From sequence record PP627283.1: a stretch of 44,820 nucleotides of DNA. The stretch is one strand, 5' to 3'. Of this stretch, positions 10,672-39,946 are shown one piece after another. The translations under genes were made by a program, and so were the position numbers. The DNA comes from Escherichia phage SM_S22. The notes beneath the pieces are model-generated. The model made no database searches and had not been told where the DNA came from. It worked only from the letters and a program-made list of their open reading frames with translations. The number at the start of each line of letters is the position of its first letter. The stretch's first letter is position 1.

Positions 10672-10695
10672 GGGGCCAGCACGGCCCCTTTTTTA
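10672..10695 (+). terminator. intrinsic terminator after major tail gene
   Basis: GGGGCC-AGCAC-GGCCCC followed by TTTTTT. Confidence 0.55.
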
Positions 10696-11073: not shown

Positions 11074-11387
11074 TTGAGGCGGCGCGACGCTTTTATGGCC
11101 CGCCGCCACCCTCCGAAGATTTAGCCGCAAGTTTATGGGGTGCGGCCCCCGAAGATGTTTGTCCGCCTGTTGCGCTATGGCCTGACAACGCGAAGATAGT
11201 CGCCGTCTTCACAGATTGCGCCACGCAATGGCGCACCGGATTTGGTGGCGCATACGGCATCGACTACGGCGTGCTGGAGTGGTTATTTAAGATGCACGGT
11301 ATCGAAAACGAGCAGCGCGCGTTTAAAGATATCAAGCTAATGGAACGCATCGCGCTTGATGAAATGGCGCAGCAGAACCCCGCATAG
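10711..11387 (+). CDS. tail assembly chaperone GT-like fusion via programmed -1 frameshift
   Basis: Heptamer A AAA AAC at 11064-11070 in X XXY YYZ register; the -1 frame stays open for 105 codons to TAG at 11385-11387. Confidence 0.5.
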
Positions 11388-11708
11388 TGAAGCGGGACAG
11401 GCGGGACGTCCCGTTTTGTCCCACCTCTGTAAAACCGCATATCTAATCACTTTTATTGCATAAACTCAAAGCGGGACAGGCGGGACGTCCCGCTTTGTCA
11501 CACCCTGTAAATGTGCATACCTATGCAGATTTCGTGCATAAAACAAACGGGACAAAAAGCGGGACAAACACGAGGCGGGACAAAGCGGGACAGCACCCCG
11601 TCCCCGCCAGTGCTGCCGCGGTTTTCAGCCGATCGGGACAGCGGGACAGCACCCCAGTCTTTCAGACTAGACGGGGGTCAGCGGCCCCCCTCGTCTGAGA
11701 CTGAATAA
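11388..11708 (+). repeat. CGGGACA-repeat element, copy 1
   Basis: Two ~75-bp units each holding palindrome GCGGGACGTCCCGC, then a 112-bp unit (11548-11659) with six CGGGACA copies and a 49-bp hairpin tail (11660-11708) that are identical to 39478-39749. Confidence 0.85.
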
Positions 11709-11771
11709 GGTTTGTTTTGAAATCGCTGATACAATATCCATCGGCAACTGCATAAAAAAGGGGACTGCATA

Positions 11772-21932: not shown

Positions 21933-23549
21933 ATGGCAGCGGGTACGCTATCCGTAACGAACAATAGCAAGGCGGTAGTAGGGGTCGGCACAACGTTTAC
22001 CGCGTTTAAAGCTGGCGACTTCCTAACGCTGGTGGTAGGGCAAGTCCCCTACACCGTGGCAATCGCATCAATCGAAAGTAACACGGCGCTTACGCTGGTG
22101 TTGCCGTTCGACGGCCCAACGGCAACCGGCCTCGCGTGGGATGGCGTTAAGCGCGATACCATGTCGCTGGCAACGATGGGCGTTACCGTACAGGCGCAAA
22201 AAGCATTGCGCTTGATGATCGCAGATGAAAACAACTGGCGTGCAATCTTCGGCGACGCTGAAGAAATCACAGTGACGTTACCTAACGGGCAGGTTATGCA
22301 GGGCATGTCATGGGGCTATCTGTCGCAGCTAATGAAGCAGATCGACCCTGTGGAGATGCGCAACCTGCAACAACAAGCCGCCGCATCGGAAGCAGCCGCG
22401 CAAGGATTTCGCAATGAGGCCGAAGGCTTCAAGACCGAGACGGCGGGTATTCGCGACGCCACCAATGCCATCAAGACGCAGACCAACCAGATTAAGGCTG
22501 ATACGCAGGCCATCAAGGACCAGACGAACCAGATCAAGACGGATACGCAGGCCATCAAGGACCAGACGAACCAGATCAAGACTGATACTGGCGTTATTCG
22601 AGATCAGGCCAATACCGCGAAGACGGACGCGCAAGCCGCCCGCGATGCCGCGCAGGGGTATCGGGATGAAGCCGAAGACTTCAAAAACGCGATCGACCCT
22701 ACGCAATTCATGAAGAAGTCGCAGAACCTGGCAGACGTCGCCGATAAATCGGCGGCACGCGCTAATCTTGGTTTGGGGTCGGCAGCTACGGAGAACACCG
22801 TTCCGATCGAGAAAGGAGGAACCGCCGCGACGACTGTAGCCGCTGCGCGCACTAATTTCGGGTTGGGCGATAACAATAACGTAAAACTTGGCACGTTGCG
22901 CCTAAACGGGGGTGAATCGCTAGTCTTCAATGATGTCGAAAGAAACGGCTTAGCACTATCCAACGTGTCGTACGGCATTGACAGTTGGGTAGGCTTCACC
23001 ATGCATAAATGGTACGCCGACTGGACACGCGCAGGAATTGTGCGTGCGGGTGACACCCACGTGTCAGACTACCGCATCCACGTGTGGAGAGATGGTATTA
23101 CTGAAGCGCTGTTCCGCTTCCTGCCGGACGGCAGGCTTATTCAGGGTAACAGCAACAACCTTTCCGTAAATGAGTTTCAGAAAGCAGCGCTGTCGGACCG
23201 CGACCTTAAAAAAGAAATCCAATACACTGACGGCGAGGAAAGCTACAACCGCGTTCGTCAATGGCTTCCGGCAATGTTCAAGTATAAGGAGTCTGACGTA
23301 CAGCGATACGGCCTTATCGCGCAGGACCTGGCAAGGATTGACCCGGAATACGTGCATTTGCTGCCGGGTTATGCCATTTATGAGGATATCAAGGGGGTTG
23401 ACGAGGAAGGGAACGAGGTTGTAGTCGACCGCAAGGAGATCGGGTATACCGACGATGTGCTGTGTCTGGACAGTAACGTGCTGTTGATGGACCTGTGTGC
23501 CGCCTTCGTCCACCTGTTGCATAAAGTTGAGAAGCTAGAAGGTAAATAA
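21933..23549 (+). CDS. tail fibre with C-terminal self-cleaving intramolecular chaperone domain
   Basis: 538 aa; tandem repeats IKxQTNQIKxDTQA; C-terminal SDRDLKKEI...YGLIAQDLARIDPEYV resembles Peptidase_S74 chaperone domains of T5 L-shaped fibre and endosialidases. Confidence 0.7.
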   Translation: MAAGTLSVTNNSKAVVGVGTTFTAFKAGDFLTLVVGQVPYTVAIASIESNTALTLVLPFDGPTATGLAWDGVKRDTMSLATMGVTVQAQKALRLMIADENNWRAIFGDAEEITVTLPNGQVMQGMSWGYLSQLMKQIDPVEMRNLQQQAAASEAAAQGFRNEAEGFKTETAGIRDATNAIKTQTNQIKADTQAIKDQTNQIKTDTQAIKDQTNQIKTDTGVIRDQANTAKTDAQAARDAAQGYRDEAEDFKNAIDPTQFMKKSQNLADVADKSAARANLGLGSAATENTVPIEKGGTAATTVAAARTNFGLGDNNNVKLGTLRLNGGESLVFNDVERNGLALSNVSYGIDSWVGFTMHKWYADWTRAGIVRAGDTHVSDYRIHVWRDGITEALFRFLPDGRLIQGNSNNLSVNEFQKAALSDRDLKKEIQYTDGEESYNRVRQWLPAMFKYKESDVQRYGLIAQDLARIDPEYVHLLPGYAIYEDIKGVDEEGNEVVVDRKEIGYTDDVLCLDSNVLLMDLCAAFVHLLHKVEKLEGK

Positions 23550-32848: not shown

Positions 32849-33628
32849 TTAACGGCGGCGACGTTTGCGCGGTGCTTCGTCTTCGTCGTCTTCGTCCTCA
32901 TCTTCGTCATCGCGGGACTTGCGACGTTTGCGAGGTTTTTCATCTTCCTCATCGTCGTCGTCATCGCGGCGCTTGGATTTCTTGGACTTGCGCGGCTTGT
33001 CATCCTCGTCATCATCACGACGTTTTGACTTCTTAGCCTTACGCGGGCTTTCGTCTTCGTCGTCGTTGTCCAGGTCTTCGTCGGAACAAGAAGACCCGCC
33101 ACCTCCGAAGGCTTCGCCGTCTTCACGGAAGCGTAAACCCAGCAAGCCAGCACCGAGTCCCTTGCCGTTGGTGTTGTTCCACGCCCAAATATCCAGTGAC
33201 ACGTTGCAATAACAACCGGAATAGATTTCCTGGCCTTCGATCTCGTCGCCGTCGATAGTCAGACCCTGCTCGGTCTGCTTCTCGCCCAGTGACGTTTGAA
33301 TGTTTGGCTGCTTGAACGATTTGGCGTTGATGTACAACATGCCTTCGAATTCTTCGGTTACTTCGTCGCGCTCGTCACCGTCGCGAACTGCGCATTCCTT
33401 AGAATCCTGGGCGTAGTGGCGGTCCATCCACTTATCGGCATTCTTCTCGGATTTCAGCTTATCGGTGAGCACTGCGCGCGCTGCCGCTTCCACTTTGTCC
33501 ACCTGCGGATCTTCTTTATCCAGAAGAATCACGGCACGGTATGCCGGTTTTTGTCCATCCTGTTTAGGGGTATCACGTTCCCAAATTTTCAGGAAACATA
33601 CGCGCACATTTTTCAGGTTGACTTTAGC
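32849..33628 (-). CDS. ssDNA-binding protein (DUF2815-like) with charged repetitive C-terminal tail
   Basis: About 259 aa from MAKVNLKNVRV (RBS GAGGAA); C-terminus has three tandem ~17-aa D/E-block plus K/R-block repeats. Confidence 0.45.
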   Translation of the reverse strand, partial: AKVNLKNVRVCFLKIWERDTPKQDGQKPAYRAVILLDKEDPQVDKVEAAARAVLTDKLKSEKNADKWMDRHYAQDSKECAVRDGDERDEVTEEFEGMLYINAKSFKQPNIQTSLGEKQTEQGLTIDGDEIEGQEIYSGCYCNVSLDIWAWNNTNGKGLGAGLLGLRFREDGEAFGGGGSSCSDEDLDNDDEDESPRKAKKSKRRDDDEDDKPRKSKKSKRRDDDDDEEDEKPRKRRKSRDDEDEDEDDEDEAPRKRRRR

Positions 33629-35865: not shown

Positions 35866-36309
35866 TTAATCTTCCAGTTCGAAATAGGTTTCGACGATTT
35901 CTTTTAAATCTTTGTGGAAGTCTTCGACGTCGTCATCTTCCAGCTTGGCGATTGATTTGATCTCGAACGCTTCCAGCAGGTCGTCGAATTCGTCGTTGGC
36001 GTCGTCGTCATCACCACCGGCGATAATCGCGGCATACTGTTTGATTTCGTCGCGCATCTCTGCCAGCGGATCGGCATCTTTCTTACCTTTGCCTTTCGCC
36101 GTGGCTTTTTTGCCTTTCGCCGGTGCTTTTTTGGTTTTCGCCGGTGCTTCGTCTTCAGCGTCGTCATCTTCTACGACTTCTTTTTTCGCCTTAGATGGCT
36201 TTTTATCTTCCTGCTTACCAACGGCAGCGCCAACGGTTTCATAATGCTTAGCGATGGTTTCCAGTGCTACTACGCCGCGAGTAATCAGGTTTACGATTTG
36301 TTCAAACAT
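35866..36309 (-). CDS. highly charged early protein (Lys-rich block between acidic blocks)
   Basis: 147 aa; RBS GGAGAT; first gene of minus-strand early operon. Confidence 0.5.
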   Translation of the reverse strand: MFEQIVNLITRGVVALETIAKHYETVGAAVGKQEDKKPSKAKKEVVEDDDAEDEAPAKTKKAPAKGKKATAKGKGKKDADPLAEMRDEIKQYAAIIAGGDDDDANDEFDDLLEAFEIKSIAKLEDDDVEDFHKDLKEIVETYFELED

Positions 36310-36711: not shown

Positions 36712-37041
36712 ATGAATGTAAACGACGCAATCGAAATGTTAACGACGACTGTTAGCAGTGAAACAAGCCGGTCATGGGCTTATACCGATGCCGTTGGGGC
36801 GGTGCTATTTGAGGTCGAGCGCCTGCGCAGTGTAGAAAAAGAATTACGCGCCAGGCTGGAATTGCTCAACGGTACGGCGGCGAGCAAGCTACAAAAACAC
36901 AATGAAGAAATGGAAGAATACAAAAAGCAGGTTATCCGTTTGCGCGCCGAGGGCAAATCCTGGGCGATGATTGCCGAGTTGACCGGAATTAATCAGAGCA
37001 CAGTGCGCTCTTGGGTACGCAATAACAAAACTTCTAAGTAA
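36712..37041 (+). CDS. HTH DNA-binding protein (putative regulator)
   Basis: 109 aa; C-terminal HTH-like SWAMIAELTGINQSTVRSWV. Confidence 0.5.
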   Translation: MNVNDAIEMLTTTVSSETSRSWAYTDAVGAVLFEVERLRSVEKELRARLELLNGTAASKLQKHNEEMEEYKKQVIRLRAEGKSWAMIAELTGINQSTVRSWVRNNKTSK

Positions 37042-37051
37042 GGCCACGGCA

Positions 37052-39316
37052 ATGAGCTTAATTAAATTCGCTGTAACAAGACCCGCTAAAAAAGGCGAAA
37101 AAGCCAGGGCGGAAAACTTCCAGATGACGACCGATGAGTTTTTCGAATTTATCAAAGATGCGAAAGAAATCTCCTCGGTGCATATCAACAAGACGGAAGA
37201 TAAAGCCGAGTATGCGCGCCGCAAGCGTAAGGCCGACGGCATCGTGGCGTATACCAGTGACGGATTGCGTCGTAAGACCAGTGCGGTGGACCGCTCGATC
37301 CTGTTCTTTGATATCGACCGCACCGACACTCGCACCTTGCGCCGCTGCCGTAAGGCTTTCATCGATGCGGGTCTGGAACACGTATTCCACACCACAACCG
37401 GCGACCGCCACCCGCTGAAAGGAGGCACGCGTTGCGCTCGTTTCCTGGTGCTCACCGATAAGCCTGTACCTGCTGAAGACCTGGGCCGCGTCCAGTATGC
37501 ACTATTACACCAACTGGGTCTGTCAGATGTGGACTTCGACGATTGCACGAAAGACACAAACCGCCTGATGTACCTGCCACACCAGCAGTCTGTTATTAAG
37601 TGCCACTACGGAAAACGTGCCCGAGTCCGTCGTCTGCTTCGCCTGGCGGATAAGTTGGGCGTGGAGAAGGAGGAAGTACGCCGCGAACTAACCCAGGGCG
37701 ATGACGCAGTGGCAGACGGCATTCTGGACTGGTGCTTCCAGGCAGGATTCGAGGAGTTATCTTCCGGTCGCGGTTATGAAGTGCCGTGCCCGAACGAACA
37801 TCTGCACAGCGGCGAAGGGTCGACGGCTATCATGGTCAAGGATGGCGAGATCCGTTTCAAGTGTATGCACACCGGCAACGAGTGTTGCTCGGAACTGAAT
37901 AGACACCAGCACCTGGCGCTGCGTCTTATCGGGATCCCTGACCACCTGAACGTCGAGCCACACAACATGTCCCGTAAGCAAATCGCCGCCATCCTTCCGG
38001 GGCTGGACGACGAGGAAGTCGAATCCTTATATGAACATATTGTTGATGCGGTTGGCGACGGCGAAGAATACGGCGTGTGCACCGATGCGGATCTGGATAA
38101 CGAGCCGGTTGCGCTGTTCAGCAAGCACGACCCGATCATCGAGGGGTTGATTAACTTCAAATCGACCTGGTACATGGCGGGTGAGTCGAATATTGGTAAG
38201 TCTTTCTACGTGCTGGGTCAAATGGGCGCTGTTGCCGCCGGTATTCCGTTCGGCGGTGCGAAGGTCGTCCAGTCTCATTGCTTCTATTTCGATGCGGAAG
38301 GTGGTGAAGCCTCCAACCAGCGTAAAGAAGCATTGCAGATTAAATACGAGCACGACCTGGACAAGCTGCACATTATCGATCTGCAGTCACGCGGCTGGGA
38401 TATCACCAGCAAATCCGGCTTGCGCGAAGTTATCAGCTTTATCAACCGCACCGCTAACGGCGAACCGGTTGGCCTGGTGGCGTTCGACTCACTCAACCAG
38501 ACTGTTGCGCTGCGGTCCGCCGATGCTAAACCGTTCGACGAGAACAACGCCAGCGATATGGGTGAAGTGGTCAAAGCGCTGAAAGCCATTGCGGAAAATA
38601 CAGGTGGCAGTGCGGGCGTCATCCACCACCCGGCGAAGGGTGCCAACGGCAGCAGAACCCCACGCGGATCCGGCGCGCTGCATGGTGCTGTCGATTCTGC
38701 GTTCTTCCTGGAGCAACCAGACGACAACCAGCCCGGACAATTGAACCTGTATCATGAGAAGGCACGTAACGGCATCAAGCAAGCGCCGCGCGGATTCGTC
38801 CTGCTCAAGTGCAAGGTGAAGGTGGATCTCCGCAAGTCAGAAGCGTTCGAGGCGCACCAGTCCACCAGCACCGGGCCAGACTTCGGTGACGTGGTTGCCG
38901 GTTGGGACGTCAAGCCGATTGCATCCACGCCTCGCGACGAGACTCTGTACCTCGTACCGGTCGCCCTGGCACCGTTCGCCATCGAACAGGCGAAGGCAGC
39001 GGGCAAGGCCGCAGTTAAGGAGGAGAACGCCGCAGGCCCGCGCAATGAAAAAGAGAAAGTGCTTTATGCAGCGCTGGAAAAACTGATGGAAGATAACCCG
39101 GACCATACCGGATTCAGCAAATCGGCAATTGTCCGCCAGGCTGGACTTGCGAAAGGTGGCACGTCGACAAAGGCAATCGACGATATGGTCGAGCGCGGCG
39201 TACTAGGTTTTTACACAGATCCACACACCGGGGCCATCTATGGGTCGTCGAATATCGTCATTAAAACGAATATACCCATCACGCTTTCGGCGACCGATGA
39301 GGATTTAAAAGATTAA
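37052..39316 (+). CDS. bifunctional primase-helicase (AEP/PrimPol-like N-terminus, P-loop helicase C-terminus)
   Basis: 754 aa; AEP-like LFFDIDRTD; Cys/His zinc module; Walker A GESNIGKS and Walker-B-like LVAFDSLNQ. Confidence 0.6.
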   Translation: MSLIKFAVTRPAKKGEKARAENFQMTTDEFFEFIKDAKEISSVHINKTEDKAEYARRKRKADGIVAYTSDGLRRKTSAVDRSILFFDIDRTDTRTLRRCRKAFIDAGLEHVFHTTTGDRHPLKGGTRCARFLVLTDKPVPAEDLGRVQYALLHQLGLSDVDFDDCTKDTNRLMYLPHQQSVIKCHYGKRARVRRLLRLADKLGVEKEEVRRELTQGDDAVADGILDWCFQAGFEELSSGRGYEVPCPNEHLHSGEGSTAIMVKDGEIRFKCMHTGNECCSELNRHQHLALRLIGIPDHLNVEPHNMSRKQIAAILPGLDDEEVESLYEHIVDAVGDGEEYGVCTDADLDNEPVALFSKHDPIIEGLINFKSTWYMAGESNIGKSFYVLGQMGAVAAGIPFGGAKVVQSHCFYFDAEGGEASNQRKEALQIKYEHDLDKLHIIDLQSRGWDITSKSGLREVISFINRTANGEPVGLVAFDSLNQTVALRSADAKPFDENNASDMGEVVKALKAIAENTGGSAGVIHHPAKGANGSRTPRGSGALHGAVDSAFFLEQPDDNQPGQLNLYHEKARNGIKQAPRGFVLLKCKVKVDLRKSEAFEAHQSTSTGPDFGDVVAGWDVKPIASTPRDETLYLVPVALAPFAIEQAKAAGKAAVKEENAAGPRNEKEKVLYAALEKLMEDNPDHTGFSKSAIVRQAGLAKGGTSTKAIDDMVERGVLGFYTDPHTGAIYGSSNIVIKTNIPITLSATDEDLKD

Positions 39317-39427: not shown

Positions 39428-39477
39428 TGTAGTGTAAATATAATGAATAGTTATGCAATAAAACTGCATAAAGTAAG

Positions 39478-39749
39478 CGGGACAAAAAGCGGGACAAACA
39501 CGAGGCGGGACAAAGCGGGACAGCACCCCGTCCCCGCCAGTGCTGCCGCGGTTTTCAGCCGATCGGGACAGCGGGACAGCACCCCAGTCGGGACAAAAAG
39601 CGGGACAAACACGAGGCGGGACAAAGCGGGACAGCACCCCGTCCCCGCCAGTGCTGCCGCGGTTTTCAGCCGATCGGGACAGCGGGACAGCACCCCAGTC
39701 TTTCAGACTAGACGGGGGTCAGCGGCCCCCCTCGTCTGAGACTGAATAA
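39478..39749 (+). repeat. CGGGACA-repeat element, copy 2 (tandemly duplicated 111-bp unit plus hairpin tail)
   Basis: Units 39478-39589 and 39589-39700, each with six CGGGACA copies and inverted GTCCC; tail 39701-39749 identical to 11660-11708. Confidence 0.85.
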
Positions 39750-39917
39750 AATCCGGGGATTGCAAAATACACGGCAGCATGACGCGAAGTGCGGTCATCG
39801 ATGAACTAGGCAACCAATGCGAGTTGCATTATGCGGAGTGAAAAACGCAGTTTGCAGTTGCAGCAGATAGCGATCAACTTTTTCATGCGCGTGATTAATA
39901 TTGGTTGCATCCGCCCT

Positions 39918-39946
39918 GGCACCCTGCTATATTGGTTGCACACCAA
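39918..39946 (+). promoter_or_regulatory. sigma70-like promoter with conserved leader
   Basis: TTGCAT-17-TATATT then GGTTGCACACCAACA-GGAGGG-ATG; the same leader occurs (rc) before gene 5005-5769. Confidence 0.45.

What the first reader, a model, noticed from the sequence alone, without database searches (positions are those of the whole stretch)
11388..11708. Second copy of the CGGGACA element inserted between tail chaperone GT and tape measure gene
About 160 bp (11548-11708) is identical to 39589-39749, preceded by two ~75-bp units each carrying the perfect 14-bp palindrome GCGGGACGTCCCGC. A 320-bp non-coding insert inside a tail operon is unusual. Two identical cis elements 28 kb apart in the same orientation, each followed by plus-strand genes, recall paired elements such as nut/put antitermination sites, dual origins, or duplicated protein-binding sites; they could also mediate recombination.
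Basis: seen in the sequence. Interest (0 to 1): 0.7.

Follow-up and report, generated by a model that had tools for sequence, protein, structure and literature searches.

The report
Paired replication-origin-like repeat elements in phage
The two CGGGACA elements are most likely paired docking sites (replication-origin iterons) for the phage's own primase-helicase, one beside its gene and one in the tail operon, and related phages change the repeat word at both places together.

Summary
The window is a complete Dhillonvirus (HK578/SO-1-like) genome. In detail: 11548-11708 equals 39589-39749 (161/161), and CGGGACA is clustered at these two loci (20 of 24 copies, all + strand). Two corrections: the upstream units are 79 bp, and only the second has the perfect 14-bp palindrome.

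The 100% identity is lineage-specific. Other Dhillonviruses keep distinct A-type and B-type middle segments, so this phage's B copy was overwritten by A and then tandemly duplicated.

The element is not coding and matches no Rfam family. Element B lies directly downstream of the primase-helicase gene. In IMG/VR, at least 74 of 116 other CGGGACA arrays lie at the 3' end of homologous AAA_25 primase-helicase genes, next to a third ~800-aa protein family, or inside lambda-O-like initiator genes.

Relatives of the helicase carry the same architecture with a different repeat word (GTGTGGCA, GTGTGCCA, GGTGCCA, GGGGGAGA, TTGCGAGT, GGGAT). The word tracks the helicase's C-terminal winged-helix tail rather than overall phylogeny. 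Where both loci could be read, the tail-operon copy uses the same word or core as the helicase-side copy.

Best reading: iteron-type origin sites read by a self-loading primase-helicase, like SaPI Rep/ori, with a second cluster recalling P4 crr. Binding and origin activity are inferred, not shown.

The parts
11388..11771 (+). Element A: whole non-coding gap between the tail-chaperone T-frame stop and the tape measure start
   Evidence: Conserved in all 158 Dhillonvirus records and present, using the same word or core as that lineage's helicase-side element, in lineages L150, L151 and L152.
11390..11468 (+). A unit 1 (79 bp): two direct plus two inverted GGGAC sites (near-palindrome GCGGGACGTCCCGT at 11401-11414), then an AT-rich stretch ending in TGCATAA
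   Evidence: (family D8)
11469..11547 (+). A unit 2 (79 bp): GGGAC sites in direct and inverted orientation, including the perfect palindrome GCGGGACGTCCCGC (11480-11493), then the AT-rich leader (11506-11547, 67% AT)
11548..11648 (+). A core site array: four direct CGGGACA (11548, 11560, 11576, 11586), one inverted GTCCCCG (11600-11606), a 27-nt A-type middle segment, then two direct CGGGACA (11634, 11642)
   Evidence: Sites are nearly invariant across 26 distinct copies (mean column identity 0.946 against 0.820 for spacers and middle).
11655..11703 (+). Long GC-rich imperfect hairpin (CAGTCT..AGACGGGGG-loop-CCCCCCTCGTCT..AGACTG); no adjacent T-run
   Evidence: 16 consensus pairs, 3 with double changes; inner-stem compensatory variants in L148 and L149; not called as a terminator
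11727..11735 (+). TGATACAAT, a candidate extended -10 promoter for the tape measure operon, just downstream of element A
   Evidence: Read from the sequence. Conserved in the A copies of the Dhillonviruses examined and in L150, absent in L151. Function not tested.
39436..39477 (+). Element B AT-rich leader (79% AT) containing TATAAT and the hairpin TTATGCA-ATAAAAC-TGCATAA; preceded by three ATTGGTTGC motifs (39328, 39382, 39417)
   Evidence: The leader core GAATAGTTATGCA is conserved as far as Salmonella phage SenTO17. The loop is inverted in some phages.
39478..39588 (+). Element B, tandem partial copy (111 nt): six direct CGGGACA sites plus one inverted
   Evidence: 111/111 identical to 39589-39699. 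Present in none of the 13 other distinct B copies aligned.
39589..39749 (+). Element B core: site array, A-type middle segment and hairpin (39696-39744), identical to 11548-11708
   Evidence: Other phages have a B-type middle here.
37052..39316 (+). Primase-helicase gene (754 aa; AAA_25 core at aa 357-531), ending 120 nt before the B leader
   Evidence: PHROG replicative helicase-primase. Homologs end at CGGGACA arrays in 42-45 other contigs.
39047..39271 (+). C-terminal winged-helix tail of the primase-helicase (aa ~666-740: H1 666-681, H2 690-697 SKSAIVRQ, H3 703-715 TSTKAIDDMVERG, two strands); proposed reader of the repeats
   Evidence: AlphaFold2 model, pLDDT 84-90 in this stretch. Foldseek hits are all winged-helix DNA-binding domains. 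Tail sequence co-varies with the repeat word.

Best explanation
Elements A and B are two clusters of short DNA binding sites (iterons). They are read by the C-terminal winged-helix tail of the phage's own primase-helicase and serve as loading sites for that enzyme, that is, replication origins or origin-plus-auxiliary sites. Proposed sequence of events: the early operon makes the primase-helicase; its winged-helix tails dock on the CGGGACA sites (4 + 2 direct, plus inverted copies) just downstream of its own gene; the adjacent AT-rich leader opens, and the conserved GC hairpin may extrude as a loading or priming signal; the enzyme loads itself and primes synthesis for the Pol I-type polymerase. 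Element A offers the same sites in the tail operon, either as a second origin or as a P4-crr-like partner that cooperates with B. SHOWN: the anatomy; the non-coding status; the position beside the helicase gene; the recurrence of the same array type in initiator contexts in other phages; the winged-helix fold prediction; covariation of tail and repeat word; the same word or core at A and B in the three lineages readable at both loci; and gene conversion between A and B. INFERRED: physical binding, origin firing, the roles of the leader and hairpin, and what element A adds.
For: (1) Context. Element B starts 120 nt after the primase-helicase stop.

(2) Recurrence. An IMG/VR scan for three spaced CGGGACA found more than 120 stretches. 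Of 116 non-Dhillon loci, 42-45 have a homologous AAA_25 primase-helicase gene ending at the array, 19-23 have the array inside a lambda-O-like/DnaD-like initiator gene, and 6 lie next to a third ~800-aa family. The primase-helicase is the only window protein family that recurs near the arrays.

(3) Covariation. Orthologous regions downstream of related helicase genes keep the architecture (ATTGGTTGC motifs, AT-rich leader, about 4 sites, an inverted site, a middle segment, 2 sites, a hairpin) but change the word: GCGGGACA (window, L146, L154), GTGTGGCA (L147, L148), GTGTGCCA (L149), GGTGCCA (L155, L156), GGGGGAGA (SenTO17; 5 of 5 genome copies there, 0.69 expected), TTGCGAGT (37P2), and a GGGAT core (L153). 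Three predictions were made from the tail sequence before reading the DNA: P0008 would be GTGGCA-type, P0009 would be different, and P0013 would be CGGGACA. All three held.

(4) Phylogeny control. L146's residues 1-620 are closer to the GTGTGGCA phages (77-78%) than to the window (71%), yet its tail is closer to the window/LM40P1 (61-62%) than to them (48-54%).

(5) Rival reader excluded. The upstream HTH protein's helix-turn-helix is almost invariant across phages with different words.

(6) Fold. The tail is predicted as a winged helix (pLDDT 84-90), and Foldseek returns only winged-helix DNA binders.

(7) Element A shares the alphabet. The GTGTGGCA phage has GTGTGGCA sites upstream of its tape measure gene (L150), the 60%-diverged CGGGACA lineage has CGGGAC sites there (L151), and the GGGAT lineage has GGGAT sites there (L152).

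(8) Site-level selection. Sites and hairpin stems are nearly invariant while spacers, the middle segment and the loop vary.
Against: No binding or replication data exist for any Dhillonvirus, and I found no publication on this element. The Dhillonvirus tail shows no significant sequence or profile similarity to the tails or N-domains of the other CGGGACA-associated initiators, so three apparently unrelated reader modules would share one word. That is expected to some degree, because the scan was conditioned on the word. Foldseek E-values for the tail are weak (0.05-0.6). In Dhillonvirus proper the segment between the two site groups is GC-rich rather than AT-rich, unlike SaPI or plasmid origins. 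The cumulative GC-skew minimum is near 35-36 kb rather than 39.5 kb, and it is confounded with transcription direction. Covariation is drawn from about 8 lineages that are not fully independent. The GGGAT case is loose: a 5-mer core in irregular arrays. The hairpin tolerates G·T/G-C alternation, which would also fit an RNA role.
Confidence: 0.66

Rival explanations
1. RNA-level cis element. Transcripts through A and B fold into structures (site hairpins plus the long 3' hairpin) that act in antitermination (put/nut-like), RNase III processing and mRNA stabilisation, or as a small RNA or protein sponge.
For: Both copies lie in the sense orientation of the flanking operons, and B is preceded by promoter-like sequence (TATAAT, three ATTGGTTGC motifs). 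The 3' hairpin is conserved with some compensatory changes and G·U-compatible alternations. The RNA fold z-score is -2.9.
Against: No Rfam family matches, even at permissive thresholds. The repeat is conserved as a DNA word in both orientations, and inverted copies would read differently in RNA. The word co-varies with a DNA-binding winged-helix tail. Identical arrays sit inside O-like initiator genes elsewhere. The middle segments show no conserved pairing between A-type and B-type. There is no T-run directly after the hairpin, and neither copy is called as a terminator.
Confidence: 0.12
2. Operator arrays for a transcription factor, for example the 109-aa HTH protein encoded at 36712-37041, controlling the early-late switch or tail-gene dosage.
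For: An HTH protein is encoded at the head of the same operon. Element A is followed by a candidate extended -10 promoter (11727-11735). Short repeated sites in both orientations are typical operators.
Against: The HTH protein's DNA-reading helix is nearly identical in phages that use CGGGACA, GTGTGGCA or GTGTGCCA, so it cannot be the word-specific reader. It fits better with the ATTGGTTGC motif, which all of them conserve. No other window protein recurs near such arrays.
Confidence: 0.1
3. Packaging or other DNA-transaction sites (pac-like terminase sites, partition-like or recombination sites) that happen to be duplicated.
For: The 4 + 2 short repeats flanking a central segment recall the P1 pac layout (own knowledge). 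Several assemblies break in or next to the element. Gene conversion between A and B is evident.
Against: Assembly breaks are what a 100-160-nt two-copy repeat causes. Linkage to the helicase gene, not to the terminase genes (1-1937), is what is conserved across families. The word tracks the helicase tail. Terminase covariation was not tested.
Confidence: 0.05
4. A small protein-coding gene (ORF 11456-11698 or 11511-11708, and its counterpart in B).
For: An open frame ending at the same TAA/TAG is present in most copies, several GenBank records call hypothetical proteins here, and indels are often length-compensated.
Against: The + strand is T-poor, so all frames stay open: jat-A and Herzl-B are frameshifted yet still open for 75 codons. 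Three B copies are cut 12 codons before the stop. Compensated +/-1 indels rewrite about 17 residues (SO-1 A, L013). Eleven of 27 copies have an in-frame TAA just before the first site, so the frame is open for only 53 codons, and the sequence read after that stop shows no ATG/GTG/TTG next to a Shine-Dalgarno-like sequence. The repeats are conserved as nucleotide words irrespective of frame. In the EE09 proteome table as seen, CDS17 (tape measure) and CDS21 (chaperone) are listed but none of CDS18-20, the ORFs between them.
Confidence: 0.02

Closest known systems
SaPI (Staphylococcus aureus pathogenicity island) Pri-Rep / ori system, especially the fused PriRep5
   Same: A primase-helicase whose C-terminal winged-helix domain reads short (5-6 nt) iterons placed immediately downstream of its own ORF; 6-12 sites in two groups; self-loading without a separate loader (PMC9371898, read). 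Here: a fused primase-helicase, a predicted winged-helix tail, 6 (or 12) heptamer sites in 4 + 2 groups starting 162 nt after the stop codon. In close relatives the segment between the groups is AT-rich (TGATTTATAAGGAG).
   Different: The helicase core here is RecA-type AAA_25, not the AAA+ SF3/MCM-like Rep. Sites are mostly direct rather than opposed. In Dhillonvirus proper the central segment is GC-rich and the AT-rich stretch lies upstream. A long conserved GC hairpin follows the sites. There is a second complete cluster 28 kb away. No sequence homology was detected.
Satellite phage P4: alpha primase-helicase with ori and crr (own knowledge: Flensburg & Calendar 1987; Ziegelin et al. 1993, 1995; Yeo et al. 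2002)
   Same: One multifunctional primase-helicase-origin-binding protein with a C-terminal winged-helix origin-binding domain. Octamer iterons at two separate loci. The second locus (crr) is built of direct repeats that carry iterons, comparable to the two 79-bp site-bearing units of element A.
   Different: P4 alpha is a Toprim primase plus SF3 helicase, with no detectable homology here. The P4 iteron is TGTTCACC. ori and crr are 4.5 kb apart in an 11.6-kb replicon, against 28/17 kb here. Whether A is required for B to function, as crr is for ori, is unknown.
Lambda O / ori-lambda and iteron plasmids (for example P1 incC/incA)
   Same: Arrays of direct repeats bound by the replicon's own initiator, with an AT-rich region and a palindrome nearby. 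The class-2 CGGGACA arrays found here sit inside O-like genes exactly as ori-lambda sits in O. Two iteron clusters flanking or near the initiator gene occur in P1 (own knowledge).
   Different: The window encodes no O-like or DnaD-like initiator.
Sodalis phage SO-1 GenBank annotation 'region A' / 'region B'
   Same: The same two loci in a congeneric phage, already described as repeat regions with mutual similarity.
   Different: It is an annotation only.

Membership tests
Iteron-type origin with self-loading primase-helicase (SaPI Rep/ori type) | Short repeated sites immediately downstream of the helicase/rep ORF | tested here: met
   First CGGGACA at 39478, 162 nt after the stop at 39316. The same layout occurs in 42-45 other contigs and in 9 related lineages.
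Iteron-type origin with self-loading primase-helicase (SaPI Rep/ori type) | C-terminal winged-helix domain on the helicase | tested here: met
   The AF2 model has an H-H-H-strand-strand topology at aa 666-740 with pLDDT 84-90. Foldseek top hits are all winged-helix domains, though with weak E-values.
Iteron-type origin with self-loading primase-helicase (SaPI Rep/ori type) | That domain binds the iterons specifically | not testable with these tools
   Indirect only: the tail sequence co-varies with the repeat word, three blind predictions held, and a phylogeny control supports it.
Iteron-type origin with self-loading primase-helicase (SaPI Rep/ori type) | AT-rich centre flanked by oppositely oriented iterons | tested here: not met
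   In the window the centre is GC-rich and 6 of 7 sites are direct; the AT-rich stretch (79% AT) lies upstream. Relatives L148, L149, L155 and L156 do have an AT-rich centre.
Iteron-type origin with self-loading primase-helicase (SaPI Rep/ori type) | AAA+ (SF3/MCM-like) Rep helicase homologous to SaPI Reps | tested here: not met
   Pfam gives only AAA_25 (RecA-type). No PDB sequence match.
Iteron-type origin with self-loading primase-helicase (SaPI Rep/ori type) | The element supports initiator-dependent replication | not testable with these tools
   Needs a plasmid ori assay or marker-frequency analysis.
P4 alpha / ori + crr | Homology of the initiator to P4 alpha (Toprim primase, SF3 helicase, origin-binding domain) | tested here: not met
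   No Toprim, D5_N or P4-family hits in Pfam or PHROGs for the window protein; no PDB sequence hit.
P4 alpha / ori + crr | The same iteron at two separated loci, the second built of direct repeats carrying iterons | tested here: met
   A and B share the word or core in three lineage alphabets. A has two 79-bp direct units carrying sites.
P4 alpha / ori + crr | The second locus is required in cis for origin function | not testable with these tools
   Requires deletion genetics.
Lambda nut / HK022 put antitermination RNA sites | Recognisable boxA/boxB or put two-stem-loop RNA downstream of early promoters | tested here: not met
   No Rfam hit at gathering threshold or at E <= 10 other than chance microRNA-like matches. 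Element A lies in the late tail operon.
Intrinsic (rho-independent) terminator | GC hairpin immediately followed by a T-run | tested here: not met
   The scanner finds none at 11655-11703 or 39696-39744. B is followed by AATAAAATCC; in A the T-rich stretch starts 7 nt after the stem.
Protein-coding gene | Conserved reading frame with a start signal and codon-like substitution pattern | tested here: not met
   Frameshifted copies, truncated copies, compensated indels that rewrite 17 residues, and 11 of 27 copies with an in-frame stop just before the first site and no evident start signal after it.

The most novel reading that the evidence does not exclude
Dhillonviruses and their relatives run a two-site replication system. 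A self-loading RecA-type primase-helicase reads private heptamer or octamer words through a rapidly re-specifying winged-helix tail. The helicase-side origin and a second site in the tail operon must carry the same word and are kept matched by gene conversion. This would be a natural, repeatedly re-coded initiator-iteron lock-and-key, perhaps giving replication incompatibility or exclusivity between co-infecting relatives. The second site would be needed in cis (crr-like) or would fire as a late origin feeding packaging.
Probability: 0.3. Interest if true: 0.75.

Novelty: new variant of a known kind. Interest (0 to 1): 0.6.

Why it matters
Dhillonviruses are common coliphages used in the BASEL collection, in defence-system screens and in therapy candidates, yet I found no description of their origin of replication in the literature searched. 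If this reading is right, it locates the origin(s) and names the initiator domain. It also explains a conserved 384-bp 'hole' in the tail operon, along with the spurious ORFs and 'terminator' annotations placed there. Finally, it provides a ready-made series of natural specificity swaps (at least six repeat words with matched tails) for studying how initiators and iterons co-evolve. Practically, it warns that the two copies break assemblies and recombine, and it tells engineers which sequences not to delete.

Tried and rejected
1. Rfam at gathering and permissive thresholds: nothing credible.

2. Simple promoter/terminator scans: no canonical terminator at the hairpins. HK578's annotated 'terminator' is merely the first palindrome.

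3. Coding hypothesis: rejected.

4. Literature searches for Dhillonvirus repeats, SO-1, transcriptomes and a GGGACA iteron: no relevant paper. The hits for GGGACA/TGTCCC were coincidental primer sequences. A P4 cosmid paper was uninformative about crr.

5. HMMs of the class-1 tails and class-2 N-domains against all window ORFs, and hhalign between the three putative reader modules: no significant relationship, so no homology claim is made.

6. GC skew: it follows transcription direction, with its minimum near 35-36 kb. Not decisive.

7. TGCATAA as a phage promoter motif: enriched only marginally (14 against 5.7 expected, 1 of 100 shuffles as high). Not pursued.

8. CRISPR-repeat, REP or MITE resemblance of the middle segments: considered by eye and dropped, since the loci are fixed across the genus, there are no target-site duplications and no Rfam CRISPR-DR hit.

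9. A homolog search with the tail alone returned only a fragment; the full-length query was needed.

10. Bas74 (35% helicase identity) shows no obvious array downstream of its helicase gene, so the layout is not universal in the wider family.
Full report
WHAT THE WINDOW IS. The 44,820-bp window is a complete Dhillonvirus genome (HK578/JL1/SO-1-like siphovirus of E. coli) opened at the small terminase gene. It matches 158 phage records at 80-98% identity, and its gene order matches the BASEL phage TheodorHerzl. Genes run on the + strand from about 36.7 kb through the end and on from 1 to 23.5 kb, and on the - strand from 23.6 to 36.7 kb.

THE OBSERVATION. Window 11548-11708 is identical to 39589-39749 (161/161). 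CGGGACA occurs 24 times against 6.6 expected, and 20 of those copies lie in the two regions, all on the + strand. Element A fills the whole 384-bp gap between the tail-chaperone T-frame stop (11385-11387) and the tape measure start (11772). It has two 79-bp direct units, each with GGGAC sites in direct and inverted orientation. Only the second holds the perfect palindrome GCGGGACGTCCCGC (11480-11493); the first has one mismatch. Then comes the shared core: four direct CGGGACA, one inverted copy, a 27-nt middle segment, two direct CGGGACA, and a 49-nt GC-rich imperfect hairpin (11655-11703). Element B lies after the primase-helicase gene (37052-39316). It has three ATTGGTTGC motifs, a 79%-AT leader with TATAAT and a small AT hairpin, a perfect 111-nt tandem duplicate of the first part of the core (39478-39588), and then the core itself. 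The SO-1 GenBank record already marks these loci as 'region A' and 'region B'. HK578's annotators labelled the first palindrome a terminator.

WHY THE TWO COPIES ARE IDENTICAL HERE. In 13 other distinct B copies, A and B share the site arrays and the hairpin but have different middle segments. The A-type is GCCAGTGCTGCCGCGGTTTTCAGCCGAT and the B-type is GCCCCGGATG(A/G)CGCGGC...AGAGGAG. The window's B carries the A-type middle plus a tandem duplication seen in none of those other copies, so it was recently overwritten from A. More generally, hairpin-loop variants (TCAGCGG, TCAACGG, TCAATGG, TCAGTGG, TCTGGCA) and the variable spacer between sites 2 and 3 are shuffled between A and B across genomes. 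The divergent LM40P1 shows derived states shared by its own A and B: ACGGGACA sites, 11-nt spacing and a CTCCGTCT stem. Gene conversion between the loci is therefore recurrent.

NOT CODING, NOT A KNOWN RNA. An open frame ends at the TAA after the hairpin in most copies, but the + strand is T-poor, so frames stay open regardless. Two copies are frameshifted yet still open for 75 codons. Three B copies are cut 12 codons before the stop. Compensated +/-1 indels rewrite about 17 residues in two copies. Eleven of 27 copies have an in-frame TAA just before the first site, so the frame is open for only 53 codons, and the sequence read after that stop shows no start codon next to a Shine-Dalgarno-like sequence. 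The repeats are conserved as nucleotide words in all three frames. The EE09 proteome table, as far as one search showed it, lists the tape measure (CDS17) and the chaperone (CDS21) but none of CDS18-20 between them. Rfam gives nothing. Neither hairpin is followed directly by a T-run, and neither is called as a terminator. Across 26 distinct copies, site columns are 94.6% identical and hairpin columns 95.8%, against 82.0% for spacers and the middle segment.

THE WIDER PATTERN. They share a grammar: 3-8 direct sites at 9-13-nt spacing, then a pair of sites, a GC palindrome and an inverted pair. Of 116 non-Dhillon loci, 42-45 have a 370-920-aa gene ending at the array that is homologous to the window's primase-helicase (22-31% identity over the AAA_25 core). 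All 29 aligned proteins hit AAA_25, while their N-terminal primase modules differ (Prim-Pol, DnaB-N, Toprim_3, PriCT_2), and they share a C-terminal tail W(R/K)xxFY...(K/R)KAFxRA...L...G...VW. Another 19-23 loci have the array inside a 230-290-aa gene that PHROGs calls replication initiation O-like or DnaD-like helicase loader, the lambda O/ori-lambda arrangement. Six more sit next to a third ~800-aa family. At least 74 of 116 arrays are therefore in or beside a replication-initiator gene. The primase-helicase is the only window protein family that recurs near them. A caveat: the scan was conditioned on the word, so it shows that such arrays mark initiator loci, not that CGGGACA is universal. 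The reader modules of the three classes and of Dhillonvirus show no significant similarity to each other.

COVARIATION WITH THE HELICASE TAIL. Relatives of the window's helicase were examined at the orthologous spot.

Repeat word by lineage:
- Klebsiella phage 37P2 (50% identity): TTGCGAGT, clustered after the helicase gene and at a second locus 9.3 kb away.
- Salmonella phage SenTO17 (46-48%): GGGGGAGA. All five genome copies lie within 90 nt after the gene (0.69 expected), behind the same GAATAGTTATGCA leader as in Dhillonvirus.
- Intermediate relatives (67-73%): L146 and L154 use GCGGGACA, L147 and L148 use GTGTGGCA, L149 uses GTGTGCCA, and L155 and L156 use GGTGCCA. All have the same architecture and a recognisably homologous hairpin.
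- The P0018 lineage (47%): a GGGAT core.

Tail helices by word:
- SKSAIVRQ / TSTKAIDDM and SKSAILKQ / TNTTAINALIERG go with CGGGACA.
- SRRAIL / SSTKPINDLI goes with GTGTGGCA.
- SARQIML / STSKPVYDLL goes with GTGTGCCA.
- SK(S/A)AIM / ST(S/T)TAINALLDRG goes with GGTGCCA.

Three predictions made from the tail before reading the DNA held. As a phylogeny control, L146's first 620 residues are closer to the GTGTGGCA phages (77-78%) than to the window (71%), but its tail is closer to the window/LM40P1 (61-62%) than to them (48-54%). The small HTH protein encoded just upstream has an almost invariant helix-turn-helix in all these phages. It is therefore not the word-specific reader, and it fits better with the ATTGGTTGC motif that all of them keep. 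An AlphaFold2 model built on a 32-sequence alignment gives aa ~666-740 as three helices and two strands at pLDDT 84-90. Foldseek against the PDB returns only winged-helix DNA-binding domains (MarR family including a MepR-DNA complex, histone H1 globular domain, Rio2 wHTH, IclR, ScpB, an 'initiator' entry), with weak E-values of 0.05-0.6 but a consistent fold class.

ELEMENT A FOLLOWS ELEMENT B. The contig of the GTGTGGCA phage begins 215 nt upstream of its tape measure gene and ends 110 nt after its helicase gene, with the same 27 nt at both ends. The assembler broke at the A/B repeat. The 215 nt hold GTGTGGCA sites followed by the hairpin. The 60%-diverged CGGGACA lineage has CGGGAC sites and the hairpin upstream of its tape measure gene. 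The GGGAT lineage has AGGGAT(AA)/ATCCCT sites in a ~235-nt gap there. 37P2 and SenTO17 have no element at that position, and 37P2's second cluster lies elsewhere. The helicase-side element is therefore ancestral. A second cluster arose at least twice, and where present it keeps the same word or core. This argues that A is a working target of the same reader, not debris.

THE HAIRPIN. RNAalifold on 15 diverse copies predicts 16 pairs, 3 of them with double changes. By eye, the inner stem reads GGGGG/CCCCC (window), GGGTG/CACCC (L148) and GGGAG/CTCCC (L149). Loops vary freely. The small AT hairpin in the B leader, and the loop between inverted sites, occur in flipped orientation in some phages. 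This supports a selected hairpin but cannot tell DNA from RNA.

MECHANISM PROPOSED. By analogy with SaPI Reps, the primase-helicase would bind the sites through its tail, open the neighbouring AT-rich DNA, load itself and prime. SaPI Reps have a C-terminal winged helix that reads 5-6-nt iterons placed immediately downstream of the rep ORF, they are self-loading, and PriRep5 is a primase fusion (PMC9371898). P4 alpha is a further analog: one primase-helicase with a winged-helix origin-binding domain and octamer iterons at ori and at crr (own knowledge). Six direct sites per core would match a hexamer, which is speculation. Element A is either a second origin or a crr-like partner. Binding, firing and the role of A are all inferred.

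MEMBERSHIP AND NOVELTY. The system works like SaPI Rep/ori and P4 alpha/ori-crr but is not a member of either. The helicase is RecA-type AAA_25, there is no sequence homology, the sites are mostly direct, and the centre is GC-rich in Dhillonvirus proper. I found no published analysis in the library searched; the only prior notice is the SO-1 GenBank annotation. I rate it a new variant of a known kind, of moderate to good interest, chiefly for the matched re-coding of both loci and the ready natural series of specificity swaps.

Noticed in passing
window 5793, 5806, 21908, 24782, 26445, 26462, 29404, 36515, 39328, 39382, 39417, 39810, 39900, 39931, 40661, 43473: A second dispersed motif, ATTGGTTGC. 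There are 16 exact copies (29 with up to one mismatch against 12 expected), several in gaps between ORFs and often paired, some overlapping sigma-70-like -35/-10 elements (for example TTGCAT-17-TATATT at 39904-39932). It is conserved in all relatives down to 37P2 (TGTTGGTTGCAATAT). It is likely the operator or promoter motif of the invariant HTH protein encoded at 36712-37041.
   Followed up: partly
IMG/VR loci L029-L145: CGGGACA direct-repeat arrays followed by inverted pairs around a GC palindrome are widespread in unrelated phage contigs (31-70% GC). They lie mostly at the 3' end of AAA_25 primase-helicase genes with a conserved W(R/K)xxFY..KKAFxRA tail, or inside O-like initiator genes. 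This looks like a large, apparently undescribed family of origins sharing one iteron word.
   Followed up: partly
window 39451-39471; L005, L011, L012, L016, L017, L025, L028 equivalents: The loop of the AT-rich hairpin TTATGCA-ATAAAAC-TGCATAA is exactly inverted (GTTTTAT) in some phages. Similarly, the GCACCCC spacer between inverted sites appears as GGGGTGC in HK578 unit 2. These are 'flip-flop' loop inversions typical of palindrome-mediated template switching.
   Followed up: no
records NC_073059.1, OX460974.1, MK138527.1, PQ295796.1; contig ERR11172925_9173 (L147/L150): Several public assemblies start, end or break inside or next to element A or B (one at the hairpin apex; one contig spans exactly from A to B). 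The two-copy repeat probably breaks assemblies; real physical ends were not excluded.
   Followed up: partly
L022 (Klebsiella phage 37P2) 1739-1837 and 11080-11178: 37P2 has its own two-locus repeat (99 nt, 77% identical) carrying TTGCGAGT sites, one copy after the helicase gene and one between the spanin and head-morphogenesis genes. This is an independent origin of a second site cluster.
   Followed up: partly
window 11727-11735: TGATACAAT (an extended -10-like sequence) lies between element A and the tape measure start. It is conserved in the A copies of the Dhillonviruses examined and in the GTGTGGCA lineage (L150) but not in L151. It is a possible internal promoter for the distal tail genes.
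   Followed up: no
window 10672-10688: A canonical intrinsic terminator (GGGGCC-loop-GGCCCC followed by TTTTTT) lies right after the major tail protein gene, upstream of the chaperone genes. It is a likely attenuator setting tail-protein stoichiometry.
   Followed up: no
L148, L149, L153, L155, L156 (and 37P2) between the two site groups: A conserved AT-rich box, TGATTTATAAGGAG, sits between the iteron groups in relatives. In Dhillonvirus proper it is replaced by GC-rich A-type or B-type middle segments. It may be the unwinding element or a host-factor site.
   Followed up: no
window 22467-22592 and 32858-33076, 35920-36171: There are three tandem 42-nt repeats inside the lateral tail fibre gene, and GTCTTCGTC-type (acidic Asp/Glu-coding) repeats in two minus-strand early genes. 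These look like ordinary coding repeats.
   Followed up: no
L151 453-1201: In one CGGGACA-lineage relative, two minus-strand ORFs (126 and 123 aa) are inserted between the chaperone T gene and element A, so this gap also accepts gene insertions.
   Followed up: no
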